Part shown: one piece after another, positions 295-32,924 of the stretch
Layout: every line of letters starts with the position of its first letter
How positions within the stretch are numbered: position 1 is the first letter of the stretch
Source of the DNA: a virus
Reading direction: 5' to 3' (one strand)
Virus genome (UHGV): UHGV-0232315
Length of the DNA: 35,654 nucleotides
Notes under the pieces: generated by a model
Databases searched by the model: none
What the model was told of the DNA's origin: nothing
What the model saw: only the letters and a program-made list of their open reading frames with translations
Translations under genes and position numbers: made by a program

Positions 295-383
295 GAAACG
301 TTGCTGGCATCAGTATTTGATTCTGAAGCCAGCAAGGTTGAACAACGAGCAGGGCGAGGCGTTAGTGTTATCATCAAAGAATT

Positions 384-941: not shown

Positions 942-943
942 CA

Positions 944-1525
944 CTATCTCCAAGTCAAAGCTGCAACATAAATGCTTCTAACCTTAGTATAATCGTTTAG
1001 CACAGCACAAGCAGCCTCCATAGATGCGCCTGTATGGTAAAGGTCGTCAATGATAAGGACATTCCAGTTGCCATTATTCTCAATACTGTCATTAACAGAG
1101 AACGAATTACCCAGCGCCGTGATTTTCTCTTCTTTTGTATTCAGGTTCTTTAGCGAAGCCCCGCCGGGGGCTTTCAACAAGAGGTCATCGAAGCATGGTT
1201 TGCCAACTAGTTTGGCTAGTTCCTGAGCTATTTCGGTCACTGGCTGGCGTGCACGCTGATTAGATGCAGCCATTGGAACGATAAACCCGACATTGCTGAA
1301 ATGAGGAAAGGCATGCTCTGCTAGGCATTGGGCTAAAGGCTTAACTTGTGACCAATCGTTACGGTATTTAAGCTGGAAAAGAGATTCGCCTACCTCAGTA
1401 CGCTCAGTCTCAAACCGCATATGTCCCCACTCATCGTAACCAATGGGAATGCTGCGGATGCTGTGTTTATCCATCGCAAGACCTAATTCCCAATTTCCAA
1501 CAATCTGTTTTATGTTGACTTTCAT
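944..1525 (-). CDS. Phosphoribosyltransferase (PRTase)-fold protein (ShosT-like candidate)
   Basis: Classic type I PRTase PRPP-binding motif VLIIDDLYHTGASM near the C-terminus; ATG start 1525; first gene of a two-gene minus-strand operon. Confidence 0.65.
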   Translation of the reverse strand: MKVNIKQIVGNWELGLAMDKHSIRSIPIGYDEWGHMRFETERTEVGESLFQLKYRNDWSQVKPLAQCLAEHAFPHFSNVGFIVPMAASNQRARQPVTEIAQELAKLVGKPCFDDLLLKAPGGASLKNLNTKEEKITALGNSFSVNDSIENNGNWNVLIIDDLYHTGASMEAACAVLNDYTKVRSIYVAALTWR

Positions 1526-1796
1526 GGCTCACCGTTTGCTGTGTAAAACACCAAAGATTACCTCTTGTTATATTTGGTGAAAGCGAAAGTTTCATTTTTT
1601 GCAGTGGAGATCAAATGTTACTCCGTGAACATTTTTAGCAGGTGGCCTCGCTACACGGTTTGGTGTAACTACTGCATGTCTATACTGCATAAATCCGCAT
1701 GATCGTTTAAGGATCGCTCTAGTTGGGGACTGCTAGGTATGGCGGGCTTTTGCTTATGTCATGCAGGTGCATGAAAACCACTATATAAAGCGGGCA

Positions 1797-1815
1797 GGCG
1801 TGGCGGGGATACGAG
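1797..1815. other. Possible cos (cohesive end) site
   Basis: GGCGTGGCGGGGATACGAG: first 13 nt match the P2/186 19-nt cohesive-end sequence as I recall it (GGCG[A/T]GGCGGGGAAAGCA..); lies in a 423-bp intergenic region next to a CATGCA-gg-TGCATG dyad (about 1758-1771). Confidence 0.35.
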
Positions 1816-1948
1816 CGCGCGTTATGACAAATAGATGATTAGCCTGATTTATTTACAGCTGTATAAATGATCACCTTGTAATTAGGTAAGTAATGTCTTC
1901 TATTATCATTGATTTGATAGGATTAATCTGTTTTTTGAGGATTAGAGG

Positions 1949-4285
1949 ATGATTGAAGAGGTAGTTATTGACAAGGTAGGCTCATATAATGGCCCTACGC
2001 AGCTTTTACATGGACTTTCTAAATTTAACTATTTATATGGAGCTAATGGTGCAGGTAAAACAACTATAAGTAAAATTATTAATGACCCTGAACAATATCC
2101 AACATGTCCGATTAAATGGAAAAATAATATATCTTTAATAAGCTACGTATATAATAAAGATTTTGTTGAAAGAAATTTTAGTCAAGATAAAATTAAAGGT
2201 GTATTTACCCTTGGTAGCGATCTTAAGGAGGATGAAGAGAAACTAATATCTCTTAAAGAAGAAAAAAATAAGCTAATGGAATCTATTATAGCAAAGGGAA
2301 AGTTAATAGATGGTGGTGATAATGAATTAGGCGTTATTAAAAAAATCGAAGACCATGAAAAATCTTTTAAAGATTCATGTTGGAAGCAAAAAGTAAAACA
2401 TGACAATGTGTTCTCAAAGGCTTTTGAGGGATTAAGGAATAGTAGTGAAAAATTTAAAGCCAGAGTGTTGGCTGAGTATGAAAATAATACATCAGAAGTT
2501 TGCTCAATAGCAGAGTTAATTGAGAAAGCAAAAATTGTTTTTTCTACTGAATTGACATCACATGTATCAATTACAATTCCATCCTTCAATGGGATAGATG
2601 ATATTTTGAGTAGGGAAATTTGGAGTGAGCGTATTCTAGGGAAAAAAGACGTTAGTGTTTCAGACTTAATTACAATGCTCAATAACAGTGATTGGGTTAA
2701 GGAGGGTTTAACATATTTCAGTAAATCTAATCCCAAGTGCCCATTCTGCCAGCAGGATGTAAATGATAATATATTTGATAATCTTTCATCATATTTTGAT
2801 AAAACATATGAGTTAAAAAAAAGAGAAATCGATGCATTGGTTTTACAATATGAATATCAACTTAATAATATCTTGAAGGCGATAGATGATATAAGGGCGA
2901 TTAAATCTCCATTCATAAATTATGAAGTGTTTGAGGATAAGGCTAAGATAGTATTATCTGAATTAAACAAGAATTTTGAATTGGCAAAAAATAAACGCAA
3001 TTTTTTAAGTGAATCAGTTCATTTTAGTGACTTAAGTGAAGTTGTTGATGATTTTATTTCTTTTTTGAATGATTCAAATCTATTGATAGATAATAATAAC
3101 AAAATATATAGTAATAGAAAGGTAGAGGCTAGTAATCTTTCTAAGCAGATATGGGCATATATCGTAAAGGTGGAGTTAAAGTCTGAAATAACTTCTTACC
3201 GTAGCAAATCTGATAAATTTAATAGGACGTTACAAGGACTTAAATCTGGGATAGAAGAAGACAAAAAGAAGTTAATGTTAAATACTTCGGCTATTGAGGC
3301 AATTGAGTCTAATAAAACCAGTACTCTTCCAACTATTACAAAAATTAACAAGATTCTGGACTCTTATGGCTTCAAAAATTTTTACTTAAAACCCTCCGAA
3401 GATAAAAAGCATTATATGATAGTAAGAGATAGTGGAGATAATGCTCGTACAACCCTTAGTGAGGGAGAAAAGACATTTATCACTTTTTTGTACTTTTATA
3501 GCCTTGTTAGAGGGAGTGATAATGCATCAGGTGTTTTAGATGATCGTGTTGTAGTATTTGATGATCCAATTTCAAGTTTAGATAGTGATATTCTGTTTAT
3601 TGTAAGTTCGTTGATTAAAGATTTAATGGAGGATGTTCGTAAGGATGAAGGAAATATTAAGCAAATTATATTCCTTACTCATAATATTTATTTTCATAAA
3701 GAGTTGACTTTTAATACCAAAAGATCCGGTAATCAAGCAATGAAAGAGGAGACTTTTTGGATTGTAAGGAAAAAAGGGAAGGTTTCATATCTTGAAAAGT
3801 GCGAATCAAACCCAATAAAAACGTCTTATGATTTGCTCTGGTGCGAATTGAGAAGAACAGACATTAATAATAATACTATACAAAATACAATGCGAAGGAT
3901 TTTGGAGAATTACTTTAAGATATTAGGTGGGATGGATATTAGGAAGCTTGAGTGTCATTTTTATGGTGATGAAAAAATCATATTTAAATCTTTAGTGTCA
4001 TGGATTAATGATGGTTCCCATTTTGCAGGTGATGATCTTTATATGAATTTAGATACGGAGTCTGTGCAAAAATATTTAATTGTTTTTCAGAAGATATTTG
4101 AATGTAGTGAGCATACTGCCCATTACAAAATGATGATGGGTGAGTTTTATAAACCGTTAAATGAGTCACTTCATCTACAAGATGAGTTTGATATAGATGA
4201 TAGTGCGAATGATGAGTATGCTTCGTCAAAAATTGAGATAAAAGATGGAATAAACACATCTCTACATAGCAACACATATTTGTAA
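1949..4285 (+). CDS. ABC-type (AAA_13-like) ATPase with coiled-coil CxxC hook; RloC/PrrC-like candidate anticodon nuclease
   Basis: Walker A GANGAGKT (aa 32-39), Walker B/D-loop VVVFDDPISSLD, internal CPFC motif between Walker motifs, C-terminal R-x3-E..H arrangement (RRILEN ... H); very AT-rich relative to phage backbone; GAGG RBS. Confidence 0.55.
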   Translation: MIEEVVIDKVGSYNGPTQLLHGLSKFNYLYGANGAGKTTISKIINDPEQYPTCPIKWKNNISLISYVYNKDFVERNFSQDKIKGVFTLGSDLKEDEEKLISLKEEKNKLMESIIAKGKLIDGGDNELGVIKKIEDHEKSFKDSCWKQKVKHDNVFSKAFEGLRNSSEKFKARVLAEYENNTSEVCSIAELIEKAKIVFSTELTSHVSITIPSFNGIDDILSREIWSERILGKKDVSVSDLITMLNNSDWVKEGLTYFSKSNPKCPFCQQDVNDNIFDNLSSYFDKTYELKKREIDALVLQYEYQLNNILKAIDDIRAIKSPFINYEVFEDKAKIVLSELNKNFELAKNKRNFLSESVHFSDLSEVVDDFISFLNDSNLLIDNNNKIYSNRKVEASNLSKQIWAYIVKVELKSEITSYRSKSDKFNRTLQGLKSGIEEDKKKLMLNTSAIEAIESNKTSTLPTITKINKILDSYGFKNFYLKPSEDKKHYMIVRDSGDNARTTLSEGEKTFITFLYFYSLVRGSDNASGVLDDRVVVFDDPISSLDSDILFIVSSLIKDLMEDVRKDEGNIKQIIFLTHNIYFHKELTFNTKRSGNQAMKEETFWIVRKKGKVSYLEKCESNPIKTSYDLLWCELRRTDINNNTIQNTMRRILENYFKILGGMDIRKLECHFYGDEKIIFKSLVSWINDGSHFAGDDLYMNLDTESVQKYLIVFQKIFECSEHTAHYKMMMGEFYKPLNESLHLQDEFDIDDSANDEYASSKIEIKDGINTSLHSNTYL

Positions 4286-4296
4286 TTTTATTACAA

Positions 4297-4326
4297 TTGC
4301 CAGTAGCAACAATACGGTACTGGCAA
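4297..4326. terminator. Hairpin between convergent genes (possible bidirectional terminator)
   Basis: TTGCCAGTA-(12 nt loop)-TACTGGCAA perfect 9-bp inverted repeat between the ATPase gene stop (4285) and Q stop (4335); followed on + strand by ctaatatttt. Confidence 0.4.
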
Positions 4327-4334
4327 CTAATATT

Positions 4335-5363
4335 TTAGTTAAGCTCATATGGAGAAAATTCTATAAGTTTTTCCCCGAGCCATGCATTAATTTCTCTAAA
4401 TCGTTTTTGCAAAGGAATTAATTCATTTATCACAAAAACCTTACTAGCCTTCTCCACATCCCCAAATCCCCCGACATTATTAGGCATAATCCCCATCATT
4501 TGCGGTGGAACGCGGTGTGCCGCCATCATGTCATCGCGACTAACATTTTTGATATTCAGAAACTCATCCTTCGCTGCGACTTCTGATAACGGGATAATCT
4601 GAAGCCCGTCCTTTTTGCCGTTAGGTGAGTACATAAACAGGTTGCGGAAGTTGCCCGGCCCTTTGGCGCTTTTCATCGCATTGCGGAGGTTGTTCACATC
4701 CTCCTGGTTTTGCGCGGCATCGGTCATGTACATGATAAAGCCCGCATGACTGCCGTTAATGTAATACTTGCGACGGAACAGCGTGGCGGACTCGTTGAGC
4801 AGGGCTGACGGAATGGCAGAAAGATAACCGGGCAGGCCGTAGATCTCCTGATTAATATCCGGTTCCATCAGATGAAAAATGCTGCCTTTCGTGAACTGAT
4901 ACGGCTGGGTTGTCATACCGTATTGCACAAACCAGTAGGTATCCAGGTCTAATCCGCGTCGGGTGTATTTTGCCAGCGCAGGTTCAAGGGCGATCACTTC
5001 ACCGAAGCGGTTCGTGCGTTTCTCCAGATAGGCGTTGCCAAATACCAGATAGTCCTGCACAAAACGCGAAAAAGCTTGCTGGCTGAGCAGAGGATGAGGG
5101 ATATAGGTACTGGTCAGAATGTTGCACTTTACTGCAATCGGGGAACTGTGATGCACGGCAGCGCGGAAGGTGCGCGCCAGTCCGTCAAAGCTGACGGGCG
5201 GCTCATACCAACGGTCCATCTGTACGCATTCCACATAGTCCAGTAATTCTCGGCGGTCCAGAACAGGAACGGGATCGCCGAAGCTGAATGCTTCGGCTGT
5301 AGTCTGGTTTTTATGCTGGATCTGATTCGTCGCCGCAGTGCGGTTTTTCTTACTCTTTCCCAT
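4335..5363 (-). CDS. Q: Portal protein (P2 gpQ-like)
   Basis: Protein MGKSKKNRTAA... with P2 Q-like length and position; ORF-track start 5366 is TTG, ATG at 5363 overlaps the stop of P (TGATG). Confidence 0.9.
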   Translation of the reverse strand: MGKSKKNRTAATNQIQHKNQTTAEAFSFGDPVPVLDRRELLDYVECVQMDRWYEPPVSFDGLARTFRAAVHHSSPIAVKCNILTSTYIPHPLLSQQAFSRFVQDYLVFGNAYLEKRTNRFGEVIALEPALAKYTRRGLDLDTYWFVQYGMTTQPYQFTKGSIFHLMEPDINQEIYGLPGYLSAIPSALLNESATLFRRKYYINGSHAGFIMYMTDAAQNQEDVNNLRNAMKSAKGPGNFRNLFMYSPNGKKDGLQIIPLSEVAAKDEFLNIKNVSRDDMMAAHRVPPQMMGIMPNNVGGFGDVEKASKVFVINELIPLQKRFREINAWLGEKLIEFSPYELN

Positions 5364-15546: not shown

Positions 15547-16144
15547 TCTGCTACCACCGGGTTCAACTTCACTGGAGCGACGACTGGCGCAAACCTGCAG
15601 TGGGATTTCTGATCTGCAGGTGCTGCTGCGTGACTTGTGGAATCCGGCTACCTGTCCGGTCAGCTTCCTGCCTTATCTCGCCTGGGCGTTCTCTGTGGAT
15701 CGCTGGGACGAGGGCTGGACAGAAAGCGTCAAACGCCAGGTAGTGAAGGATGCTTTTTATATTCATCAGCATAAAGGGACCACCAGTGCCGTGCGGCGGG
15801 TGGTGGAGCCGTTCGGCTTTCTGATCCGCATTATTGAGTGGTGGCAGACCGGAGAGGCACCGGGCACGTTTCGTCTGGATATCGGCGTGCAGGACCAGGG
15901 CATCACTGAAGATACCTATCTGGAACTTGAGCGACTGATAAGCGATGCCAAACCATGTAGCCGTCACATGAGCGGCATGTCCATCAACCTGCAGACCAGC
16001 GGCCCGCATTGGGTGGGAGCCGCCAGCTATCTTGGCGAAGAAATCACGATCTATCCGTATATCAACGAAACAATTATTTCCGGCGGCACCGCGCATGAAG
16101 GCGGGGCGGTCCATGTTATTGACACAATGAGAGTGAATCCATGA
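15539..16144 (+). CDS. I: Baseplate/tail protein I (P2 gpI-like)
   Basis: 201 aa; GGAGGAA RBS; overlaps the J stop. Confidence 0.85.
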   Translation: MNSLLPPGSTSLERRLAQTCSGISDLQVLLRDLWNPATCPVSFLPYLAWAFSVDRWDEGWTESVKRQVVKDAFYIHQHKGTTSAVRRVVEPFGFLIRIIEWWQTGEAPGTFRLDIGVQDQGITEDTYLELERLISDAKPCSRHMSGMSINLQTSGPHWVGAASYLGEEITIYPYINETIISGGTAHEGGAVHVIDTMRVNP

Positions 16145-18060
16145 GCACAAAATTTTATACCCTGCTGACGGATATTGGCGCGGCGAAACTTGCCAGCGCC
16201 GCCGCGCTTGGTGTGCCGCTAAAAATAACCCATATGGCGGTGGGCGATGGCGGCGGAGCATTGCCGACGCCGGACGCAAAGCAGACTGCACTGGTAAATG
16301 AGAAACGCCGGGCTGCGCTGAATATGCTCTATATCGACCCGCAGAACAGCAGCCAGATTATTGCTGAACAGGTGATCCCTGAAAACGAGGGCGGTTGGTG
16401 GATACGTGAAGTGGGCCTGTTTGATGAGTCAGGGGCATTGATTGCCGTGGGGAACTGCCCGGAAAGTTATAAACCGCAACTGGCTGAAGGCAGCGGGCGC
16501 ACCCAGACCGTGCGCATGGTGCTGATTACCAGCAGTACGGACAATATCACCCTGAAAATCGACCATGCTGTAGTACTGGCAACTCGCAAGTATGTGGATG
16601 ACAAAATATCAGAGCACGAACAGTCACGACGTCACCCGGACGCCTCGCTGACCGCAAAAGGTTTTACTCAGTTAAGCAGTGCGACCAACAGTGAATCCGA
16701 AATACTGGCCGCAACACCGAAGGCTGTGAAGGCTGCATATGATCTTGCAGCAGGTAAAGCATCCGCCAGTCACACACACCCGTGGAATCAGATAACAGGT
16801 GTACCTGCAGCCTCGCTGACGGTAAAAGGCACTGTGCAACTCAGCAGCGCCACTAACAGCACATCAGAAACGCAGGCCGCCACTCCAAAGGCAGTGAAGG
16901 CGGCATATGACCTTGCAGCAGGTAAGGCACCTGTCAGTCACACACACCCGTGGAATCAGATAACGGATGTGCCTGCAGCTTCACTGACGGTAAAAGGCAC
17001 CGTGCAACTCAGCAGTGCCACTAACAGCACGTCAGAAACGCAGGCTGCCACACCAAAGGCAGTGAAGGCGGCATATGACCTTGCAGCAGGTAAGGCACCT
17101 GTCAGTCACACGCACCCGTGGAGCCAGATAACGGATGTGCCTGCAGCTTCACTGACGGTAAAAGGCACCGTGCAACTCAGCAGCGCCACTAACAGCACGT
17201 CAGAAACGCAGGCTGCCACACCAAAAGCTGTGAAGGCTGTATATGACCTTGCCAATGGAAAACAACCTGCCGACGCCACACTGACCGCACTGGCAGGCCT
17301 TGCCACTGCGGCAGACAAACTTCCGTATTTTACGGGGAATGATACAGCCAGCCTGACAACCCTGACTAACGTTGGACGGAATATTCTGGATAAAGCAAGT
17401 ACACAGGCGGTTATTCAATATCTTGGTCTGAGCGATGCAAGTGGATACGTTGGACGCTGGCTGAATACCCGGGTTTTCACCTCATCAGGTACGTACACCC
17501 CGACGCCAGGAACAAAACGGATCAGGGTCACAATAACGGGCGGCGGTGGCGGAGGGGGCGGCTGCAAGGCTACATCCAATAATGAAACGTTTTTCGGTGC
17601 TGGCGGCGGGGCAGGTGGGACAGTAATCACCACGCTGATCCTGACGAAGGATAGTTATCCTGTCACTATCGGTGCAGGTGGGGCCGGCGGCGTTAGTGCG
17701 ACGAACGGCCTCAAGGGCGGTGATAGCTCGTTCGGATCGGTAATAGCCCCTGGTGGTGAAGGTGGTGGAAAATCAGGAGTCACAAACACGAACGGTGGTA
17801 ACGGCGGCGTGCCAAGTACTGGCGGTATCAACATCATTGGTGGAAATGGAGGCGACGGTCAGTCCGGAAATATCGGCGTCAGCGGTGAAGGCGGAACATC
17901 GTACTGGGGGGGCGGTGGACGCGCAGGCGCTGGCGGTGGTGTTAGTGGTAAGGCATATGGTTCAGGTGGCGGTGGCGCATACGATGCCGGTTATAGCGGA
18001 ACCAGTATGACAGGCGGGAAAGGTGCTGCTGGGATTTGTATTATCGAGGAGTTTGCATAA
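16141..18060 (+). CDS. H: Tail fibre protein H: P2 H-like N-terminus, four tail-fibre repeats, glycine-rich C-terminal module
   Basis: N-terminal ~170 aa P2 H-like (MSTKFYTLLTDIGAAKLA...DASLTAKGF); 4 x 56-aa repeats; C-terminus dominated by Gly runs (GGGGGGGGCK..., GAGGGAGG...). Confidence 0.9.
   Translation: MSTKFYTLLTDIGAAKLASAAALGVPLKITHMAVGDGGGALPTPDAKQTALVNEKRRAALNMLYIDPQNSSQIIAEQVIPENEGGWWIREVGLFDESGALIAVGNCPESYKPQLAEGSGRTQTVRMVLITSSTDNITLKIDHAVVLATRKYVDDKISEHEQSRRHPDASLTAKGFTQLSSATNSESEILAATPKAVKAAYDLAAGKASASHTHPWNQITGVPAASLTVKGTVQLSSATNSTSETQAATPKAVKAAYDLAAGKAPVSHTHPWNQITDVPAASLTVKGTVQLSSATNSTSETQAATPKAVKAAYDLAAGKAPVSHTHPWSQITDVPAASLTVKGTVQLSSATNSTSETQAATPKAVKAVYDLANGKQPADATLTALAGLATAADKLPYFTGNDTASLTTLTNVGRNILDKASTQAVIQYLGLSDASGYVGRWLNTRVFTSSGTYTPTPGTKRIRVTITGGGGGGGGCKATSNNETFFGAGGGAGGTVITTLILTKDSYPVTIGAGGAGGVSATNGLKGGDSSFGSVIAPGGEGGGKSGVTNTNGGNGGVPSTGGINIIGGNGGDGQSGNIGVSGEGGTSYWGGGGRAGAGGGVSGKAYGSGGGGAYDAGYSGTSMTGGKGAAGICIIEEFA
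16648..17319 (+). repeat. Four tandem 168-bp (56-codon) in-frame repeats inside H
   Basis: Units begin at 16648, 16816, 16984 and 17152 (each starts ctgac[cg]g[ct]aaaagg); units 2 and 3 differ at only a few bases, unit 4 diverges at its 3' end. Confidence 0.9.
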
Positions 18061-18473
18061 TGAATGCGTCATATGCAGTTATTGAAAATGGGATGGTTGT
18101 GAATGTCATTGTCTGGGATGGCGAGGCTGAATTCACAGTGCCGGATAATCAGCAGCTCATTGATATTTCTGATATCAGTGAGCATCCCGGAATCGGCTGG
18201 GGGTATTCAGACGGGGTATTTACTGCGCCGCTCCCTCCGGAACGTTCTCATGATGAACTGGTAGCTGACGCTGAACAGAAAAAACAGTCGCTGATAGACG
18301 CAGCAATGGCCAATATCAGCGTGATTCAGTTAAAGCTGCAGGCCGGGCGCAAACTGACGCAAGAAGAAACTACCCGACTTAACGTTGTGCTGGATTATAT
18401 CGAGGCTGTGACGGCAACAGATACCAGCACCGCACCTGATATCATTTGGCCTGTTTTCCCTGCAAGCAGATAA
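18060..18473 (+). CDS. G: Tail fibre assembly protein (gpG/Tfa-like)
   Basis: ORF 18036-18473; ATG 18060 overlaps the H stop (TAATG); C-terminal ...DTSTAPDIIWPVFP is Tfa-like. Confidence 0.85.
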   Translation: MNASYAVIENGMVVNVIVWDGEAEFTVPDNQQLIDISDISEHPGIGWGYSDGVFTAPLPPERSHDELVADAEQKKQSLIDAAMANISVIQLKLQAGRKLTQEETTRLNVVLDYIEAVTATDTSTAPDIIWPVFPASR

Positions 18474-25804: not shown

Positions 25805-25830
25805 ACAAAAAACCCATTTATGTAAACGGG
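25805..25830 (-). terminator. Weak hairpin plus T-run downstream of int (minus strand)
   Basis: On the minus strand cccgttt-acat-aaatggg is followed by TTTTTT; the stem is short with one mismatch. Confidence 0.3.
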
Positions 25831-25836
25831 TTAATG

Positions 25837-25870
25837 AAAACAATAAGTTAGATTAAAAACAATAAGTTAG
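25837..25870. repeat. Two 15-bp direct repeats (AAAACAATAAGTTAG) spaced 19 bp apart in the ogr-int intergenic (att-like) region
   Basis: Exact copies at 25837-25851 and 25856-25870; candidate integrase arm-type or accessory-factor binding sites. Confidence 0.5.
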
Positions 25871-25891
25871 GTTGGTGGTCAGTGGTGGTTA

Positions 25892-26944
25892 TTACGGGGT
25901 AATGCCAACCGCTGCCGCCACTTTGCCGCCACTTGGCAGCGTTGCCAGAGGATTGAAACGGAGCGCCGTTTCCAGATGATCCGGTGCCAGATGAGCGTAA
26001 CGCATAGTCATTTTTATATCGTGATGTCCGAGGATTTTTTGCAAAGCAAGGATATTTCCACCCGACATCATGAAATGTGCCGCAAACGTATGGCGCAGAA
26101 CGTGTGTCAGTTGACCGCGAGGGAGCACGATTGACGTTTTTTCCATCACGGATAAAAATTGAAAATAGCAGTCTGTGAAGAAATTGAACCCATCAAGCGC
26201 CATGATCTCTTCATAAAGCTCTTTACTGATAGGGATGCTTCTGTTTTTCTTCCCCTTCGTTCTTACAAAGGTAATTCGGTATTTAGTCACCTGTGATCGG
26301 GTAAGGTTTATTGCTTCTCGCCAGCGTGCGCCTGTGCTTAAGCATATCTTGACTACCAGTGCCAGAATTGGGTCCTGACGTTTGCAATCAGCCAGCAGTT
26401 CAACAATCTGCTCATGGGTAAGCCATGCCATCTCTTTTTCTGCGATGGTGAATTTTCGCATGTTCTCCAGTGGGTTTGGATACGACCATTCGCCCAGGCG
26501 GGATAGTTCGCTAAAAACACTACTTAGATAGCTTTGCTCCAGGTTAATGGTGACCGGGCTGGCTCCTTTCTTCCATTTCTCGCTGAAGTAGATCTCACCT
26601 GTCAGGCGTTTATCTCGATAGTGGGCAAACATTTTAGAGGTGAGATCGGTTGCAAGAGGATTGCCCAGAGCGTCAACCATCAGCAGCAATTTGTCATAGA
26701 CATGCTGCCCAGCAGTCAGAGATTTACCATGTAATTTGAACCATAGCTCAACCACGTCTTTCAGTGTTCGACGATCCACTGATTCACCTAGCCAAGGCTT
26801 TGCTTCGGTTTCTTCCATCGTGTGACGCTCAAAAGCCAGAGCTTCGCCTTTGGTGGCGAATTGTTTACGCACACGACGTCCACTACGTCCGGCGGGATAA
26901 CATTCGCACAGCCATTTTCCTGTGGTGAGTTTTCGTACTGCCAT
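25892..26944 (-). CDS. int: Tyrosine integrase
   Basis: 350 aa MAVRKLTTGKWLCECYPAGRSGRRVRKQF... with C-terminal ...HVLRHTFAAHFMMSGGNILALQKILGHHDIKMTMRYAHL catalytic region (R..H-x-x-R..Y). Confidence 0.9.
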   Translation of the reverse strand: MAVRKLTTGKWLCECYPAGRSGRRVRKQFATKGEALAFERHTMEETEAKPWLGESVDRRTLKDVVELWFKLHGKSLTAGQHVYDKLLLMVDALGNPLATDLTSKMFAHYRDKRLTGEIYFSEKWKKGASPVTINLEQSYLSSVFSELSRLGEWSYPNPLENMRKFTIAEKEMAWLTHEQIVELLADCKRQDPILALVVKICLSTGARWREAINLTRSQVTKYRITFVRTKGKKNRSIPISKELYEEIMALDGFNFFTDCYFQFLSVMEKTSIVLPRGQLTHVLRHTFAAHFMMSGGNILALQKILGHHDIKMTMRYAHLAPDHLETALRFNPLATLPSGGKVAAAVGITP

Positions 26945-26969
26945 AAAAAAGTCCTCATGTCTGAGGACT
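26945..26969 (-). terminator. Perfect 8-bp hairpin plus T-run immediately upstream of the int start codon (terminator and/or RBS-sequestering structure)
   Basis: Minus strand: AGTCCTCA-gaca-TGAGGACT-TTTTT-ATG; the 3' arm contains the int GAGGA Shine-Dalgarno. Confidence 0.45.
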
Positions 26970-27026
26970 AAATTTAACTGTATGTTTGAACAGTGGTCAA
27001 TGTTTAAAGATCTTCAATCAAACATT

Positions 27027-28358
27027 TCATTGGAGCAAGAAAACTTTTAAGGTGTTTTTGAATATTCTAACAGGGTCTTCTACACCTGCATTTCCTTTTA
27101 AAATATGATAATCACTTATTTCAGCCCATCTGTTTTTTTCATCGTTTTCAGAAGGAAGTAAAGGAGAACCTTCTGGCATATATTTATAAGTTATACCAAA
27201 TAATGCATAATAGTAGATGTTGATGTTATATTGATCTGTCTGATATGGGAGTCTATTAACACCGAAGAAATTAATTATTAATTGTGCATCTATTTTATCT
27301 TCTACGTAGTTAAGGGCCAGTTCACGACCAAACGAATAAAGAATTACTGCAAGGGTTCGATAACAGCAATAGCCTGGTATAAATTTATTGCTGATTTCAT
27401 TTTGAGATAAAATTTGATAAATTTCTAGATATCTTGATAAGGTTTCAACTTCCCGTAGCGACAAGCCTTTTAGTTCGATAAATTTTTGAACTATATGAAT
27501 ACTACTTTCTCCAATTTCTTTTAGTCTTTCAGACTCGTTACATAGCATTCTAAAATGAGAGTTCGAAGCCAAAATTTTATCGTAATTGTTTTCAGTGAAA
27601 GTCACTGGCAGGCTGTAAGTGAATTTTATAAATTTATCAAGATATCTTTCTGAGTCAACACCTGCACCGTAAATATGATTTATTGATGCTTTCAATTGTG
27701 AGATGTTAGCAACTAACAAGAAGTTAAGATTTTCAGTGTCAAAAACATGTTTTATATTTTCGATGATAGAGATGGCAAAGCTTGGTTTACAACGGTCAAG
27801 TTCGTCAATGATAATTGTTATTTTATTTTCGCTAGTTAGTTCAGCAAGTACTTCCTTGAGAGCAAGCAAATGTTTCTTTGCTTCAATATGATCATCAAGC
27901 AGTGCTTCTACAGTACCATCTATAGCTGAGTTAGCCGCATCTTTAATAGCATCTTCGAATTCATCCGCAATATCATCTGCATTTTGTTTTAAAATCCACC
28001 CAGCGCCAGCTTTGAGTACAGTTTTAAGTCCAAATCTCAATGCTGGTAATGCCTTTGATATTAATTCCTTCTTTTCACTCTCTGGATATAATGCAACTAT
28101 TGCAGCCATTATAGTAAGTATGGGAGCATCATTATGATCTTCAGTAAATGCATCAATATATACTACTTTATGCCCAGATTCATTTTTTTCAATCAATGCC
28201 GCTAATTTTTTTGAAAATTCGGTTTTACCGGTACCCCAGTCCCCATCGATAACAATAGGGGATATTTTTAAGGGGGACTCGAGTAAGCTTATTATTTTTT
28301 CAGCAATGATTTTTCTATTATACTCATCTCTGTTTTCAAAAGTCATATCATTATTCAT
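27027..28358 (-). CDS. KAP-family P-loop NTPase
   Basis: Walker A GDWGTGKT (GxWGxGKT KAP signature) and Walker B IIIDELDRC; ORF-track start 28367 is TTG, I place the start at ATG 28358 after AAGG; AT-rich. Confidence 0.65.
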   Translation of the reverse strand: MNNDMTFENRDEYNRKIIAEKIISLLESPLKISPIVIDGDWGTGKTEFSKKLAALIEKNESGHKVVYIDAFTEDHNDAPILTIMAAIVALYPESEKKELISKALPALRFGLKTVLKAGAGWILKQNADDIADEFEDAIKDAANSAIDGTVEALLDDHIEAKKHLLALKEVLAELTSENKITIIIDELDRCKPSFAISIIENIKHVFDTENLNFLLVANISQLKASINHIYGAGVDSERYLDKFIKFTYSLPVTFTENNYDKILASNSHFRMLCNESERLKEIGESSIHIVQKFIELKGLSLREVETLSRYLEIYQILSQNEISNKFIPGYCCYRTLAVILYSFGRELALNYVEDKIDAQLIINFFGVNRLPYQTDQYNINIYYYALFGITYKYMPEGSPLLPSENDEKNRWAEISDYHILKGNAGVEDPVRIFKNTLKVFLLQ

Positions 28359-28369
28359 ATGAAGCAACC

Positions 28370-28555
28370 TTAGTTTTTAGAACATATTTTCTTTGACTTG
28401 CTTTGCGTTCCATCATTGCAAACGAACTTCCCATCAGATGTACAATGTGAAACTCCCCCTTTCTTACCAGAACATGGATAATTTTTTGCAAAACTTGTAA
28501 TAGGTAAAGTAATAAATAAACAAATAAGTAGGATATGTATAGATTTATAAAACAT
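28370..28555 (-). CDS. Small secreted Cys-rich, Lys-rich peptide (predicted signal peptide)
   Basis: ORF 28370-28573; start placed at ATG 28555 after AAGGA; [23 protein letters not shown] then a 38-aa mature part with 4 Cys and 8 Lys; stop lies 11 nt upstream of the NTPase ATG (28358). Confidence 0.5.
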
Positions 28556-28578
28556 ATTTATTTCCTTATACATTAATT

Positions 28579-29142
28579 TTAATAATTGACGATCGCGCTT
28601 CTAATTTTTCCTATGATATCAATTTCATCTATTTTGCATTCAAAGGAACTGCTGCCACCATCGACATTTAGACGACGTCCCGGCAGTCTTGTCAGATTCC
28701 TGATAGCAACCTCGCCATCAATATCAACGATCCACTTACCATCACGTACATCCTCATAATCCGAATCACAGATAAACTCTGATGCGCCATCGATCACAAC
28801 AAAAGGTTTTTTTAGTTTTTCAGGCAAAAAGTTGTTGTCGAAAATGTAGTAACCATCAGGAAGTAGTTTTCCGCTTGATAAAATCTTCCTTTCGATCTCT
28901 TTTGTGTTTTCTTTTTGTGAACTTTCTTTTGAACCTTGCCCAGTAGTTAGCCACTCTAGCGACGTGCCGGTTTCAAGTGCACATTGGATTACCCATTCTG
29001 CCGGGAATGAATCACGCATATAGCGCGTGGCTAAGGTGCTTTTAGAAATGCCCAAATGATCACACAAAGCTTGTCTTGTCTTGAAACCATAGGCTTCAAC
29101 CATGCGCTCTATGGCCCCACGACCGCCTTTTTCCAAATTCAT
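28579..29142 (-). CDS. cI: Immunity repressor CI (phage 186 CI-like)
   Basis: ORF 28579-29148 (GTG); ATG 29142 after GGAG; N-terminal HTH region and C-terminal ...[27 protein letters not shown]... resembling 186 CI. Confidence 0.8.
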
Positions 29143-29267
29143 GGTCACTCCAAGTGAACTTTTACCTTGACGATTTCATGATGTGATCGTATGTTTGCAG
29201 TGTTCACATAATACAAACGATCAGTATTCATCCTGATTAATCATTGCTAAAAGAGGAATGTTGCATC
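29143..29267. promoter_or_regulatory. Lysis-lysogeny switch region (divergent pL/pR-type promoters and operators)
   Basis: Intergenic region between divergent cI and apl; dyads GTGAAC(29155-29160)/GTTCAC(29212-29217) and TGATCGT(29184-29190)/ACGATCA(29217-29223); two GATC sites. Confidence 0.5.
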
Positions 29268-29489
29268 ATGAGACCTAACATTTCAATCACTCTCATCACC
29301 CCCCACGTTACTATAGAAAGATATAGTGAACTCACTGGCTTATCTATCGACACAATTAACGACATGCTTGCAGATGGGCGTTTGCCTCGTCATCGCCTAC
29401 GTAAGGATAAAAAGCGTGAAAAAGTGATGATTAACATTGCTGCGATGACGATCGATGCCCTCTCTGATTGCAACGTGACTATCAACTAG
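29268..29489 (+). CDS. apl: Apl/Cox-type excisionase-repressor
   Basis: ORF 29244-29489; start placed at ATG 29268 after AGAGGA; small basic protein as the first gene of the rightward early operon. Confidence 0.65.
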   Translation: MRPNISITLITPHVTIERYSELTGLSIDTINDMLADGRLPRHRLRKDKKREKVMINIAAMTIDALSDCNVTIN

Positions 29490-29521
29490 TTCCATTTTGA
29501 GACTTCACGGAGCAACTGACT

Positions 29522-30031
29522 ATGTTTGACTATCGCATTTCAAAACATCCCCATTTCAATGAAGCCTGCCGGGCCTTCGCCCTACGACACAACATGGCGA
29601 AGCTGGCAGAGCGCGCAGGTATGAACGTTCAAACCTTGCGTAACAAGCTCAACCCGGAACAACCACACCAACTTACTGCGTCAGATATCTGGCAGTTAAC
29701 CGATCTCACTGAAGACCCAACACTGGTTGATGGATTTCTGGCTCAGATTCACTGCCTGCCATGTATACCGGTAAATGAGGTGGCAAAAGAGAGACTGCCA
29801 CATTACGTCATGAGTGCAACCGCAGAGATCGGGCGTGTTGCTGCAGGTGCGGTGTCTGGCGATGTAAAAACCTGTGCCGGTCGTCGTGATGCTATCAGCA
29901 GCATTAATTCTGTAACACGACTGATGGCGCTGGCGGCTGTTTCATTGCAGGCCCGTTTACAGGCTAATCCTGCGATGGCGAGTGCAGTTGATACCGTGAC
30001 TGGCCTCGGTGCTTCATTTGGTTTGCTGTGA
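29522..30031 (+). CDS. cII: CII-like lysogeny-establishment activator (186 CII-like)
   Basis: 169 aa MFDYRISKHPHFNEACRAFALRHNMAKLAERAGMNVQTLRNKLNPEQPH... resembling 186 CII. Confidence 0.75.
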   Translation: MFDYRISKHPHFNEACRAFALRHNMAKLAERAGMNVQTLRNKLNPEQPHQLTASDIWQLTDLTEDPTLVDGFLAQIHCLPCIPVNEVAKERLPHYVMSATAEIGRVAAGAVSGDVKTCAGRRDAISSINSVTRLMALAAVSLQARLQANPAMASAVDTVTGLGASFGLL

Positions 30032-30038
30032 GGTGCTT

Positions 30039-30239
30039 ATGCTGACGAAAGAACCATCATTTGCATCGCTGCTGGTTAAACAAAGCCCGGCAATGCATTA
30101 CGGTCACGGCTGGATCATGGGGGAGGATGGTAAACGCTGGCATCCGTGCCGTTCACAAGATGAATTGCTGGCAGAACTATCTACGAAAAAACGGGGGAAC
30201 AAATGGCTATTGAAGGCACTGCGGCGACTGTTCCATTAA
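30039..30239 (+). CDS. Hypothetical early protein (186 fil position)
   Basis: ORF 30009-30239; ATG 30039 after GAGGTG. Confidence 0.5.
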   Translation: MLTKEPSFASLLVKQSPAMHYGHGWIMGEDGKRWHPCRSQDELLAELSTKKRGNKWLLKALRRLFH

Positions 30240-30544
30240 GCCCCGGTGAACGCCTGAATGGACTTAATCACATTGCGGAGTTAAGGGCGAAAGTTTTTGG
30301 CCTGAATATTGAGTCAGAGCTTGAGCGGTTTATTAAAGATATGCGTGATTCACGGGATATTAATAGCGAACAAAATAAACGGGCACTGGCTGCCATATTC
30401 TTTATGGCAAAAATTCCAGCTGAACGTCATAGCATCAGCATTAATGAGCTGACCACTGACGAAAAGCGGGAGTTGATTAAAGCAATGAATCATTTTCGTG
30501 CAGTGGTGAGCTTATTTCCCAGACGGCTAACCATGCCGAATTAA
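30203..30544 (+). CDS. Hypothetical early protein (186 dhr position)
   Basis: 113-aa ORF overlapping the previous gene by 37 nt. Confidence 0.5.
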   Translation: MAIEGTAATVPLSPGERLNGLNHIAELRAKVFGLNIESELERFIKDMRDSRDINSEQNKRALAAIFFMAKIPAERHSISINELTTDEKRELIKAMNHFRAVVSLFPRRLTMPN

Positions 30545-30611
30545 CCAACTAATGAAATTAATGGCGTAAACCCGCCGGGCATCCCTTTATCTAAATTCAG
30601 GAGAATTGATT

Positions 30612-30845
30612 ATGCGTAATATTGAAACCCTCTCGACCAAAACCGGACCGGATGACGCAGGGCTTAATATTTTACTGACAGAGGCTCGTCTGGAAGAACG
30701 CCGGGCAAGGGCTGAAGCAATGGCAGCTCGCCTTGATAGTCTGGCGTGTCATATTACATCCCGCCAGCTAAACCACGTCGAAGCGGCAGAACTGCTGCGT
30801 GTGACTGCTGAAGCAATCCAGAACGAAGCGCAGGAGATCCACTAA
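30612..30845 (+). CDS. Hypothetical early protein
   Basis: ORF 30606-30845 (TTG); ATG 30612 after AGGAGA. Confidence 0.55.
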   Translation: MRNIETLSTKTGPDDAGLNILLTEARLEERRARAEAMAARLDSLACHITSRQLNHVEAAELLRVTAEAIQNEAQEIH

Positions 30846-31072
30846 TGGCTGATGCAATGGATCTCGTACAGCAGCGCGTTGAAGAAGAACGCCAGCGCCA
30901 TATCCGTGCTGCCCGTGCCAAAACACCGGGCGTGTCACGCGTACTTTGCATTGAATGTGAAGCGCCAATTCCGCCAGCACGACGCCGCGCCATTCCGGGA
31001 GTGCAGCTTTGCATTACCTGTCAGGAAATCGCAGAACTGAAAGGCAAACATTACAACGGAGGTGCTGTATGA
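30845..31072 (+). CDS. TraR/DksA-family C4 zinc-finger protein
   Basis: CIECEAPIP...CITCQ four-Cys motif at the C-terminus of a 75-aa protein; TAATG overlap upstream and ATGA overlap downstream. Confidence 0.7.
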   Translation: MADAMDLVQQRVEEERQRHIRAARAKTPGVSRVLCIECEAPIPPARRRAIPGVQLCITCQEIAELKGKHYNGGAV

Positions 31073-31917
31073 GCACCATCCTGAAATGGGCGGGAAATAA
31101 AACGGCCATTATGGCAGAACTGAAAAAATACCTTCCTGCTGGCCCGCGACTGGTTGAACCTTTCGCGGGTTCCTGTGCAGTGATGATGGAGACGGATTAC
31201 CCCAGCTATCTGGTTGCGGATATTAATCCTGATTTAATCAACCTCTATAAAAAGGTTGCCGCTGATTGTGAATCGTTTATATCTCGCGCCAGAGTTTTAT
31301 TTGAGAACGCAAACAGGGAGATGGCTTATTACAACATAAGGCAGGAGTTTAATTACTCAACTGAAATTACTGATTTCATGAAAGCAGTATATTTCCTGTA
31401 TCTCAATCGTCACGGTTACCGTGGTTTATGTCGCTATAACAAGAGCGGGCATTTCAACATTCCCTACGGTAATTATAAAAATCCGTATTTCCCTGAAAAA
31501 GAAATTCGTGCATTTGCAGAAAAAGCCCAGCGGGCAACATTTATCTGCGCCAGCTTCGATGAAACGCTGGCAATGTTGCACGCGGGGGATGTTGTGTATT
31601 GCGATCCGCCTTATGACGGTACGTTTTCCGGCTATCACACTGACGGCTTCACTGAAGATGACCAGTATCACCTGGCATCCGTTCTTGAACATCGGTCATC
31701 AGAAGGACATCCGGTCATTGTTTCTAACAGTGACACATCCCTGATCCGTTCGCTGTATCGCAATTTCACTCACCACTACATCAAGGCAAAACGCAGCATT
31801 GGCGTGTCAGCTGGCGAGAGTAAATCTGCAACAGAAATCATTGCCACCAAATCAGCTGGGTGGTTTGGTGTCGATTTTGCCAGCGGCTCTGACCGTACCG
31901 TTGAGGTACGCGCATGA
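31069..31917 (+). CDS. dam: DNA N6-adenine methyltransferase (Dam/D12 class)
   Basis: ORF 31009-31917; ATG 31069 after GGAGGTG; N-terminal KWAGNK and catalytic DPPY ([10 protein letters not shown]) motifs. Confidence 0.85.
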
Positions 31918-32924
31918 ATGCTATCGATCCGCGTTGCTTTGCCTCAGGCACCATTAACGTCATCACTACTTCTGGTGGCAAAGATAGTCTCGCTCAATGG
32001 CTAAGAGCCATTGAAAACGATGTTCCGCATATTTCTGTATTTGCCGATACGGGTCATGAACATCCACAGACAATAGAATATCTGGATTATCTGGAATCAA
32101 AGCTGGGCAAGATTATTCGCGTCAAAGCGGATTTCACACGCCAGATAGAAGGGAAACGTAAATTCATTGCGGAAAAGTGGCCCATTTCTCTCGTTGAGGA
32201 ATGTGGTATGTCGACAGATGAGGCTGAGGAACGTATTTACCGGGCACTGGAAATCCTTAAACCAACCGGCGTTCCGTTTCTTGATTTGTGCATGTGGAAA
32301 GGTCGCTTCCCTTCAACAAAAGCTCGTTTCTGCACTTTTGAACTGAAACATGAACCAATACGTACACAGGTAATCGATCCAGCTCTGGATGAATACGATG
32401 AGGTAATCAGCTGGCAAGGAGTCCGGGGGCAGGAATCACCGGAACGTGCATTGTTGCCTGAGTGGGAGGACGATGCAGACAATACTCTGGGGCTGCATGT
32501 TTATCGTCCGATCCTTAATTGGCTGCATGAGGATGTGTTTGCTATTGCCAAACGTCATGGCATTAAGCCTAACCCCCTTTATATGCAGGGATGCAGTCGT
32601 GTCGGTTGTATGCCATGCATTCATGCTCGCAAGTCAGAACTTGGAGAGATTTTCCAACGCTGGCCAGAAGAAATCCGCCGAGTGGCTGAGTGGGAAAGAC
32701 TGGTTGCGGAATGTTCAAGACGTGGCAATTCAACGTTCTTTCCATCCACGCATGATCCGCGCCGTGCTGAAAAACGGATCGAAGTCATAACTGTTGATGC
32801 TTATGGTATTGAAACTTATCGGGACTGGGCCTTAACGACTCGGGGCGGTATGCAGTTTGACCTGCTGGCAGGCATGAATGATAAAGCGGTGTGCAGCAGT
32901 GTATATGCAGGAGTCTGTGAGTGA
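31914..32924 (+). CDS. PAPS-reductase/DndC-like PP-loop ATP pyrophosphatase family protein
   Basis: PP-loop TSGGKDS near the N-terminus, C-terminal Cys cluster [10 protein letters not shown]; ATGA overlap with the dam stop. Confidence 0.7.

What the first reader, a model, noticed from the sequence alone, without database searches (positions are those of the whole stretch)
16648..17319. Four near-identical tandem 168-bp repeats within tail fibre gene H
Each unit encodes a 56-aa tail-fibre repeat (TVKGTVQLSSATNSTSETQAATPKAVKAAYDLAAGKAPVSHTHPWNQITDVPAASL); units 2 and 3 differ at only a few nucleotides. P2 H, as I recall, carries fewer copies. Such near-identical in-frame DNA repeats are substrates for recombinational expansion or contraction, which would change fibre length without frameshifting.
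Basis: seen in the sequence. Interest (0 to 1): 0.4.

Follow-up and report, generated by a model that had tools for sequence, protein, structure and literature searches.

The report
Variable-copy shaft repeats in tail fibre
The tail-fibre gene of this P2-like E. coli phage has three and a half in-frame copies of a known 56-residue fibre repeat, and related prophages carry two to six copies with hybrid units showing misaligned recombination, which is real but ordinary for phage fibres.

Summary
The repeat is real but overstated. The fibre gene (16141-18060, 639 aa) has a 168-bp in-frame period from about 16640 to 17255. That is three full units plus the first ~102 nt of a fourth, about 3.6 copies.

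Only U2, U3 and the partial U4 are close (91-95% nt). U1 is 76-79% identical to them, with dS about 0.9-1.2. Each unit is a Pfam Phage_fiber_2 motif (PF03406, 240 bits). Full units also carry a linker with an SHTHPW (HxH) motif.

E. coli prophages with the same N- and C-terminal fibre domains carry 2, 3, 4, 5 or 6 motif copies, and protein lengths (527 to 751 aa) step by exactly 56 aa.

- Hybrid units mark the crossovers, for example strain HS inside a 30-bp identical run.
- ETEC4091 differs from the window by 3 nt in the first 1011 nt of the gene yet has one extra unit.
- The repeats also serve as joints where different N- or C-terminal fibre domains are swapped.
- P2 H has two motifs and no HxH linker.

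That copy number sets shaft length, and that each unit adds a metal site, is inferred and not shown. This is a known kind of feature, so interest is low.

The parts
16141..18060 (+). Tail fibre gene (P2 gpH-type), 639 aa, which contains the repeat array.
   Evidence: ORF. Pfam hits: Phage_tail_fib PF12571 at aa 1-150 (E 2.5e-64), four Phage_fiber_2 PF03406 stretches (E 1.2e-72), and Gly_rich_2 PF21722 at aa 448-636. It is 52.9% identical to P2 H over aa 1-438. It lies between a phage tail protein I gene and a tail fibre assembly gene in relatives.
16648..16815 (+). Repeat unit 1 (56 aa), the divergent and older copy: LTAKGFTQLSSATNSESEILAATPKAVKAAYDLAAGKASASHTHPWNQITGVPAAS.
   Evidence: It is 78.6% and 76.2% nt identical to U2 and U3, with dS 0.92-1.21.
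16816..16983 (+). Repeat unit 2 (56 aa).
   Evidence: It is 95.2% nt identical to U3.
16984..17151 (+). Repeat unit 3 (56 aa). It differs from U2 by one residue (N to S in HPW[N/S]QIT).
   Evidence: dS 0.19, dN 0.008 against U2.
17152..17253 (+). Terminal partial unit 4. It holds only the Phage_fiber_2 motif (about 34 aa) and has no HxH linker. Homology to the other units ends here, and unique shaft sequence follows (NGKQPADATLTALAGL...).
   Evidence: shift-168 identity collapses after about 17085+168. In E. coli J2 an unrelated C-terminal domain is joined inside this unit.
16771..16779 (+). His-Thr-His (HxH) codons of unit 1. The equivalent sites are 16939-16947 in U2 and 17107-17115 in U3. 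These are candidate buried metal-binding sites on the trimer axis.
   Evidence: Read directly from the sequence. The motif is invariant in the 28-sequence alignment. The analogy to Fe-binding HxH sites in R-pyocin fibres and T4 gp37 comes from PMC6116203. Metal binding was not tested.
16767..16796 (+). A 30-bp run identical between U1 and U2 (partner at 16935-16964). The crossover that produced the U1/U2 hybrid first unit of the 3-copy (HS) and 5-copy (MS 85-1) alleles falls in this interval.
   Evidence: identity runs at shift 168: 30, 17, 59, 59 and 41 bp; marker switch between unit positions 118 and 149.
17482..18048 (+). C-terminal glycine-rich domain, presumed to be the receptor-binding tip. 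It lies outside the repeat and is constant across the copy-number series.
   Evidence: PF21722, 55 bits against a cut-off of 24.3.
18036..18473 (+). Tail fibre assembly (chaperone) gene immediately downstream.
   Evidence: Caudo_TAP PF02413, E 2.7e-20; annotations.

Best explanation
The array is a run of structural shaft modules in the trimeric tail fibre of a P2/186-like temperate phage of E. coli. Each 56-aa unit combines a Phage_fiber_2 motif (Pfam PF03406, core SSATNSTSETxAATPKAVKxAYDLA) with a linker carrying an invariant SHTHPW. The last unit holds the motif only. Because the units sit head to tail, stay in frame, and share 30-59-bp runs of perfect identity, misaligned pairing adds or removes whole units without breaking the reading frame. 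That misalignment could be unequal homologous crossing-over or gene conversion between sister or co-resident genomes, or slipped-strand replication. The result is a natural allelic series of 2 to 6 motif copies on otherwise the same fibre. The same conserved motif DNA also acts as a homology joint where different N-terminal (baseplate-attachment) or C-terminal (receptor-binding) domains are exchanged between phages.

Shown here: the repeat, its family membership, the copy-number series, the hybrid units, and the module swaps at the motif.

Inferred: that each unit lengthens the shaft by a fixed increment, that each HxH binds a buried metal ion in the trimer, and which enzymatic pathway makes the changes.
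For: - Repeat and frame.
- Family: PF03406 at 239.6 bits against a cut-off of 22, four stretches. One copy of the motif lies in the solved Mu fibre protein S (5yvq/8ju3, residues 107-151, E 4e-6).
- Copy-number series with exact 56-aa steps: 583/639/695/751 aa among the 120 best homologues, with 3/4/5/6 KAVK motifs, plus 527 aa in strain D5.
- Not an assembly artefact: all four strain-HS assemblies among the hits give the same 3-copy span, and the variants come from complete genomes.
- Hybrid units: the first units of HS and MS 85-1 are U1 at the 5' end and U2-like at the 3' end, switching inside the 30-bp identical run. The terminal unit of D5 is U2-like at the 5' end and U4 at the 3' end. 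Units 3 and 4 of the 6-copy allele are identical and share a private marker.
- More than 50 distinct array architectures occur among 120 homologues, with markers shuffled between positions.
- Near-isogenic gain: ETEC4091 differs from the window at 3 of the first 1011 nt of the gene but has one more unit.
- Several copy numbers occur within one C-terminal sequence cluster (at least 97% identical): 3/4/5, 3/5/6 and 5/6.
- Purifying selection on the units: dN/dS about 0.04 for U2-U3.
- Module swaps at the motif: J2 (new C-terminus) and PK-F-10122 (new N-terminus plus a P2-type 44-aa unit).
- The same 56-aa unit recurs up to about 12 times in other fibres with unrelated N-termini.
Against: - No direct evidence here links copy number to fibre length or host range.
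- The AlphaFold monomer model was uninformative (mean pLDDT 35). Neither the fold of a unit nor a per-unit rise could be derived.
- The window's own units are not fresh duplicates (U2-U3 dS 0.19), so the rate of change may be low on laboratory time-scales.
- Recombination and replication slippage cannot be told apart from sequence.
- The homologue list is ranked by bit score, which favours longer arrays, so the frequencies of copy-number classes are only rough.
Confidence: 0.8

Rival explanations
1. The copy-number differences are assembly artefacts. Assemblers collapse or expand a 168-bp repeat of about 95% identity, and the true gene always has one fixed number of units.
For: Many database proteins come from short-read draft assemblies, and a 0.6-kb array of 168-bp units exceeds typical read length.
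Against: - All four strain-HS assemblies among the hits give the same 3-copy span.
- The 2-, 3-, 4- and 5-copy alleles all occur in complete genomes.
- The alleles carry specific hybrid units and private markers that a simple collapse would not create.
- Length classes are exact multiples of 56 aa with intact reading frames.
Confidence: 0.03
2. The array is an old, frozen duplication kept by purifying selection for a fixed shaft architecture. The differences between prophages reflect horizontal replacement of whole fibre genes from different phage lineages, not ongoing expansion or contraction in situ.
For: U1 is anciently diverged (dS 0.9-1.2). U2-U3 dS of 0.19 is as large as the divergence between lineages. 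Unit types such as 'H' and 'D' are recognisable across many genomes. Fibre genes are clearly mosaic.
Against: - ETEC4091 is almost identical to the window on both sides of the array (3 differences in 1011 nt) yet has one extra unit.
- Identical adjacent units with a private marker occur in the 6-copy allele.
- Hybrid first and last units show intragenic misalignment.
- Several copy numbers occur on a single C-terminal cluster.
Confidence: 0.1
3. The repeat is a programmed, high-frequency switch (a contingency locus). It would generate fibre-length heterogeneity within a single lysate as bet-hedging against variable host surface layers.
For: Changes are in frame and non-lethal. Identity runs of up to 59 bp would allow frequent misalignment. 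Array architectures in nature are very diverse.
Against: - No dedicated recombinase, invertase or reverse transcriptase lies next to the fibre gene.
- There is no Chi site in the window.
- All four HS assemblies among the hits are identical in copy number.
- Synonymous divergence between units shows they are not being homogenised rapidly.
Confidence: 0.05

Closest known systems
Pfam PF03406 Phage_fiber_2 ('phage tail fibre repeat'), as in lambda Stf, E. coli K-12 StfR, P2 H and Mu S
   Same: The core motif matches the family model four times, far above threshold. It was first noted in lambda stf and recurs in many prophage side tail fibres (PMC3368898). One copy is present in the solved Mu fibre S.
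   Different: Here the motif is embedded in a regular 56-aa unit with an HxH linker, repeated in tandem at the DNA level. P2 H itself has two motifs at 44-aa spacing and no HxH linker. Other fibres mix 44- and 56-aa units into 100-aa super-repeats.
Bacteriophage P2 tail fibre protein H (gpH)
   Same: Same N-terminal collar domain (PF12571). It is 52.9% identical over aa 1-438. The gene position is the same, after gpI and before the fibre-assembly chaperone.
   Different: The window has four motifs against two in P2 H. The C-terminal domain is different (Gly_rich_2 here). The chaperone is a shorter Caudo_TAP protein.
T4 gp37 'His-box' duplications and motif-mediated adhesin swapping (Tetart et al. 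1996 J Mol Biol 258:726; 1998 J Mol Biol 282:543)
   Same: In-frame duplication of a small histidine-containing fibre segment by recombination between short homologies, and exchange of adhesin domains at conserved motifs. The references were confirmed to exist; their content is from my own knowledge.
   Different: In T4 the duplications lie in the receptor-binding tip and were selected in the laboratory for an expanded host range. Here the units lie in the shaft, the variants are natural alleles, and no phenotype is known.
HxH iron sites of trimeric fibres and spikes (R1/R2 pyocin fibre shaft, T4 gp37, P2 gpV)
   Same: A His-x-His motif recurs at a fixed place in a trimeric fibre. In solved structures six histidines from three chains bind Fe octahedrally and may act as folding registration points (PMC6116203).
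   Different: No structure or metal analysis exists for this unit. The surrounding sequence is unrelated to the pyocin shaft.
[quoted passage not shown]
   Same: The general concept that conserved short motifs in fibre genes of P1, P2, Mu, lambda and T4 are duplicated and used as recombination linkers. The reference was confirmed to exist; its content is from my own knowledge.
   Different: This case adds a within-species allelic series (2-6 copies) with mapped hybrid units.

Membership tests
Pfam PF03406 Phage_fiber_2 repeat | Match to the family HMM above the curated gathering score. | tested here: met
   239.6 bits against a cut-off of 22, E 1.2e-72, four matched stretches.
Pfam PF03406 Phage_fiber_2 repeat | Occurs in a phage or prophage tail fibre protein. 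| tested here: met
   N-terminal Phage_tail_fib domain. The gene lies between the tail protein I gene and the tail fibre assembly gene of a P2-like genome.
P2 gpH-type tail fibre | N-terminal tail-collar/fibre domain homologous to P2 H. | tested here: met
   PF12571 at E 2.5e-64; 52.9% identity to P2 H over aa 1-438.
P2 gpH-type tail fibre | Synteny: J-I-H-G (chaperone)-FI (sheath). | tested here: met
   ORFs, and annotations of relatives 97-99% identical to this gene or region.
P2 gpH-type tail fibre | Same C-terminal receptor-binding domain as P2 H. | tested here: not met
   The tblastn match to P2 H stops at aa 438. The C-terminus here is Gly_rich_2 PF21722.
HxH metal-binding trimeric fibre segment | Conserved His-x-His motif in each unit. 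| tested here: met
   SHTHPW is present in U1-U3, is invariant in the 28-sequence alignment, and is present in all 41 full-unit sequence types collected from the 120 homologues (one type reads SHTHAW and one SHTHQW).
HxH metal-binding trimeric fibre segment | Six histidines from three chains coordinate a buried Fe or other metal ion. | not testable with these tools
   Only monomer prediction is available, and the model had pLDDT 35. This needs a trimer structure or metal analysis.
Recombination-prone tandem repeat with natural copy-number polymorphism | Alleles differ by whole units on the same flanks. | tested here: met
   2-6 motif copies with 56-aa steps; a near-isogenic +1 allele.
Recombination-prone tandem repeat with natural copy-number polymorphism | Hybrid units at the junctions, within stretches of identity. 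| tested here: met
   The variable-site matrix and the identity runs.
Contingency locus / phase-variable repeat | High-frequency, reversible change within a clonal population. | not testable with these tools
   This needs population long-read data. All four HS assemblies among the hits show the same copy number, which argues weakly against it.
Diversity-generating retroelement target | A nearby reverse transcriptase and a template repeat with adenine-specific mismatches. | tested here: not met
   No reverse transcriptase appears among the window ORFs that were scanned or in the annotation of the 99.6%-identical prophage. Differences between units are mostly synonymous third-position changes and are not adenine-specific.

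The most novel reading that the evidence does not exclude
The number of 56-aa HxH-containing units may be an evolvable ruler that matches fibre reach to the thickness of the host's O-antigen or capsule layer. On this reading, gain or loss of a unit is a host-range adaptation used repeatedly by P2-like prophages of E. coli, with each unit adding one buried metal site that registers the trimer.
Probability: 0.2. Interest if true: 0.5.

Novelty: already known. Interest (0 to 1): 0.2.

Why it matters
It matters modestly. The repeat family and the idea that fibre repeats duplicate and act as recombination joints are established, and proteins essentially identical to this one are already in public databases (P0106-P0109). 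The useful result is a clean natural allelic series of 2 to 6 units on the same fibre, with mapped crossover intervals. That series is a ready-made set for testing how shaft length affects adsorption, and for designing P2-based or tailocin fibres of adjustable length. For annotation and assembly, it warns that this gene's length varies in 168-bp steps and may be mis-assembled from short reads.

Tried and rejected
- **Structure prediction.** The AlphaFold2 monomer model of the whole fibre, built from a 28-sequence alignment, had mean pLDDT 35 and pTM 0.24, with the repeat region below 35. It was not used beyond noting a predicted short helix at PKAVKAAYDLA. No fold search was run, because a low-confidence model gives meaningless matches.
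- **Phage collection at DNA level.** Only the first 464 nt of the gene match known phages at 95-96%. The repeat array and C-terminus were found only in E. coli chromosomes.
- **Strict-E-value search for an unbiased copy-number census.** The strict cut-off dropped secondary pieces, so spans no longer reported copy number directly. Three '1-803, two places' rows proved to be 5-copy alleles: ETEC4091 and MS14386 by fetching them, and MS 85-1 already known. A fourth fetched row (13C1079T) also carries four full units but is truncated by a deletion in the terminal unit. The census remains approximate.
- **Chi sites as recombination hotspots.** None occur in the window.
- **Diversity-generating retroelement or invertible segment.** Neither a reverse transcriptase nor an invertase lies near the fibre gene.
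- **Literature search for an explicit report of this copy-number polymorphism in P2-like fibres.** Nothing specific turned up.
Full report
**1. What is in the sequence**

The finding lies inside a 639-aa ORF at window 16141-18060 on the + strand. Pfam places three kinds of domain in it:
- an N-terminal P2-type tail-collar/fibre domain (PF12571, aa 1-150, E 2.5e-64);
- four stretches of the 'phage tail fibre repeat' Phage_fiber_2 (PF03406, 239.6 bits against a cut-off of 22);
- a C-terminal glycine-rich domain (PF21722, aa 448-636).

The next ORF (18036-18473) is a Caudo_TAP tail-fibre assembly protein. The window as a whole is a circularly permuted P2/186-like genome. Window 1673-25817 is 99.6% identical to a prophage next to ybjL in E. 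coli 23CRST022. Integrase, CI, CII, Dam methylase and gpA genes lie in the remainder.

**2. Check of the observation**

Tandem Repeats Finder reports period 168, 3.2 copies, 92% matches, no indels and score 903 at 16707-17252. Two statements need correcting.
- The fourth unit shares only its first ~102 nt (34 aa, the Phage_fiber_2 motif) and then runs into unique sequence. Periodic homology therefore ends near 17255 rather than 17319, and the array has about 3.6 copies.
- The units are not all near-identical. U2 and U3 are 95.2% identical (8 nt). U4 is 91-94% identical to U2 and U3 over 102 nt. U1 is only 78.6% and 76.2% identical to U2 and U3.

Nei-Gojobori estimates are dS 0.19 and dN 0.008 for U2-U3, and dS 0.92-1.21 and dN 0.12-0.13 for U1 against U2/U3. 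For comparison, the N-terminal domain of this gene differs from its orthologues in other E. coli prophages by dS 0.03-0.17. The units are therefore under strong purifying selection. The window's own copies are not fresh duplicates.

**3. Anatomy of a unit**

A full unit reads L-T-[A/V]-K-G-x-x-Q-L-S-S-A-T-N-S-x-S-E-x-x-A-A-T-P-K-A-V-K-A-A-Y-D-L-A-A-G-K-A-x-x-S-H-T-H-P-W-x-Q-I-T-x-V-P-A-A-S. The first ~36 residues are the Pfam motif. The last ~20 are a linker with an invariant SHTHPW. The terminal unit has the motif only.

P2 H has two motifs 44 aa apart, joined by a different linker (…NGKYTAQDATTARKG…) with no His-x-His.

By sequence, one copy of the motif is present in the solved Mu fibre protein S (5yvq/8ju3, residues 107-151, E 4e-6).

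In solved trimeric fibres and spikes (R1/R2 pyocin fibre shaft, T4 gp37, P2 gpV), HxH motifs from three chains bind a buried Fe ion octahedrally. They are thought to serve as registration points for folding (PMC6116203). By analogy, each full unit here may add one such site. This is inference. An AlphaFold2 monomer model was useless (mean pLDDT 35), and no trimer prediction was available.

**4. Copy number in relatives**

Among the 120 best homologues in the protein collection, lengths fall into classes of 583, 639, 695 and 751 aa. These carry 3, 4, 5 and 6 KAVK motifs and 2, 3, 4 and 5 SHTH motifs.

Genomic copies, most of them in complete E. coli genomes, confirm the series on the same N- and C-terminal domains:

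| Strain or protein | Fibre length (aa) | Full units + terminal unit |
|---|---|---|
| D5 | 527 | 1 + 1 |
| HS | 583 | 2 + 1 |
| window and ECCTRSRTH03 | 639 | 3 + 1 |
| MS 85-1, ETEC4091, MS14386 | 695 | 4 + 1 |
| P0010 (a 389-kb contig of a draft assembly) | 751 | 5 + 1 |

All four strain-HS assemblies among the hits give the same 3-copy span, which argues against assembly artefact. About 117 of 5,426 complete E. coli genomes carry this array at high identity. In an evenly spaced sample of 60 of them, roughly 23 have four copies. About 23 appear to have five; three of these rows were confirmed as 5-copy alleles (ETEC4091, MS14386, MS 85-1), and a fourth fetched row (13C1079T) is a truncated allele with four full units. 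About 4 have three copies and about 5 have two. This census is approximate.

**5. Evidence for misalignment as the mechanism**

A variable-site matrix of all units from seven alleles shows hybrid units.
- The first unit of HS and of MS 85-1 is U1-like up to unit position 118 and U2-like from position 149. The interval between these positions is exactly the 30-bp run (16767-16796) that is identical between U1 and U2.
- The terminal unit of D5 is U2-like at its 5' end and U4-like after that.
- Units 3 and 4 of the 6-copy allele are identical and share a private marker, the signature of a recent duplication.

ETEC4091 differs from the window at only 3 of the first 1011 nt of the gene. After a 168-nt shift it differs at only 4 positions up to gene position 1466, yet it has one more unit.

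At the protein level the 120 homologues show more than 50 different array architectures. Diagnostic residues (ASASH or APVSH; N, S or G after HPW; G or D after QIT; KAA or KAV) are shuffled between positions.

Within single clusters of C-terminal sequence (at least 97% identical), several copy numbers coexist: 3/4/5, 3/5/6 and 5/6. Gains and losses have therefore happened repeatedly.

Identity runs at a shift of one unit are 30, 17, 59, 59 and 41 bp. The longest are comparable to or longer than the ~25-bp minimum I recall for efficient RecA-dependent recombination in E. coli (own knowledge: Shen and Huang 1986). RecA-independent slipped misalignment is an equally good candidate for tandem repeats of this size (own knowledge: Bzymek and Lovett 2001). 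The sequence cannot tell the two apart. There is no Chi site in the window, and no dedicated recombinase, invertase or reverse transcriptase near the gene.

**6. The repeats are also module-swap joints**

- In E. coli J2 the same N-terminus and the same three full units are joined, inside the terminal motif (…TPKAVK|SAYDNAEKRL…), to an unrelated C-terminal domain. Nucleotide identity collapses between gene positions ~1040 and 1100.
- In PK-F-10122 a divergent N-terminal collar and a P2-type 44-aa unit precede window-type units and the same Gly-rich C-terminus.
- In the 50%-identity representative library, the 56-aa unit recurs up to about 12 times in fibres with quite different N-termini, often alternating with the 44-aa unit as 100-aa super-repeats.

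This matches the long-standing picture of fibre genes as mosaics assembled at conserved motifs. That picture rests on my own knowledge of Haggard-Ljungquist et al. 1992, Sandmeier 1994 and Tetart et al. 1998; the last two references were confirmed to exist. [quoted passage not shown]

**7. Interpretation and rivals**

The best explanation (confidence about 0.8) is that these are structural shaft modules whose number drifts, or is selected, through misaligned recombination or slippage. Assembly artefact is very unlikely. A frozen ancient duplication, with differences due only to whole-gene replacement, is contradicted by the near-isogenic +1 allele and the intragenic chimeras. A programmed high-frequency switch is not supported: no machinery is present, copy number is stable across HS assemblies, and synonymous divergence between units is appreciable. 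That copy number changes fibre length, and that length matters for adsorption, is plausible and echoed in the literature (PMC6116203), but it is untested here.

**8. Novelty and score**

The repeat belongs to a curated Pfam family. Proteins essentially identical to this one are already in NCBI (P0106-P0109, listed at 100% identity and full coverage). Variable repeat number and motif-mediated recombination in fibre genes are textbook phage biology. The within-species allelic series with mapped crossover intervals is a tidy illustration, and I did not find it described explicitly, but a specialist would not be surprised. Novelty is 'already known' and interest is 0.2. The most novel reading not excluded is that unit number is an adaptive ruler matched to host surface-layer thickness, with one metal site per unit (probability about 0.2, interest 0.5 if true).

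Noticed in passing
window 17590-17840 (fibre gene nt ~1450-1700, inside the Gly-rich C-terminal domain): This is a localised divergent patch. Relatives that are at least 99% identical to the window through the N-terminus and repeats (23CRST022, ETEC4091) differ by roughly 20% in this ~250-nt stretch and become near-identical again after it. It looks like a recombined or diversifying segment of the presumed receptor-binding tip.
   Followed up: partly
L012 (E. coli J2) 1193-3466; L013 (E. coli PK-F-10122) 1354-3237: The same repeat array is joined to an unrelated C-terminal domain in J2, with the junction inside the terminal Phage_fiber_2 motif. In PK-F-10122 it is joined to a divergent N-terminal collar plus a P2-type 44-aa unit. 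The motif acts as a joint for swapping fibre modules.
   Followed up: partly
L002 (E. coli FDAARGOS_433) 3001-5316: This 771-aa allele has the same four motifs plus a 132-aa insertion between the shaft and the Gly-rich domain (…GCPASPTGWLKTGNNGESITTAQL…). It is an extra domain of unknown function.
   Followed up: no
L011 (E. coli 13C1079T) 1193-3007: This is a degraded prophage. The fibre ORF runs through four full units, then leaves the normal sequence inside the terminal unit and continues as unrelated sequence (…LSSATTVGLGTLAVALAAV…). The ogr gene follows directly, so a large deletion has one end inside the repeat.
   Followed up: no
window 18036-18473 (+), and the equivalent gene in L002-L005, L008 and L009: The tail-fibre assembly gene is an intact ORF with a clear Caudo_TAP match in the window. 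NCBI's pipeline nevertheless flags the equivalent gene in many relatives as a pseudogene ('incomplete; partial in the middle of a contig'). This is probably an annotation artefact of a short, divergent chaperone.
   Followed up: no
window 27027-28367 (-), next to the integrase at 25892-26944 (-): A 445-aa KAP-family P-loop NTPase (PF07693, E 3.8e-51) sits between the integrase and the CI repressor. This stretch (window 25818-31020) has no counterpart in the part of the otherwise 99.6%-identical 23CRST022 prophage that was fetched. It may be cargo or a defence gene.
   Followed up: no
window 384-953 (-) and 944-1525 (-): Two ORFs of 189 and 193 aa have no Pfam match. They lie in a segment (window 369-1672) that replaces different sequence in the 23CRST022 prophage, so this is a variable cargo slot.
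   Followed up: no
window 31914-32924 (+): A PAPS-reductase-domain protein (PF01507, E 5.7e-34) lies between the Dam methylase and the replication gene A. Its function in the phage is unknown.
   Followed up: no
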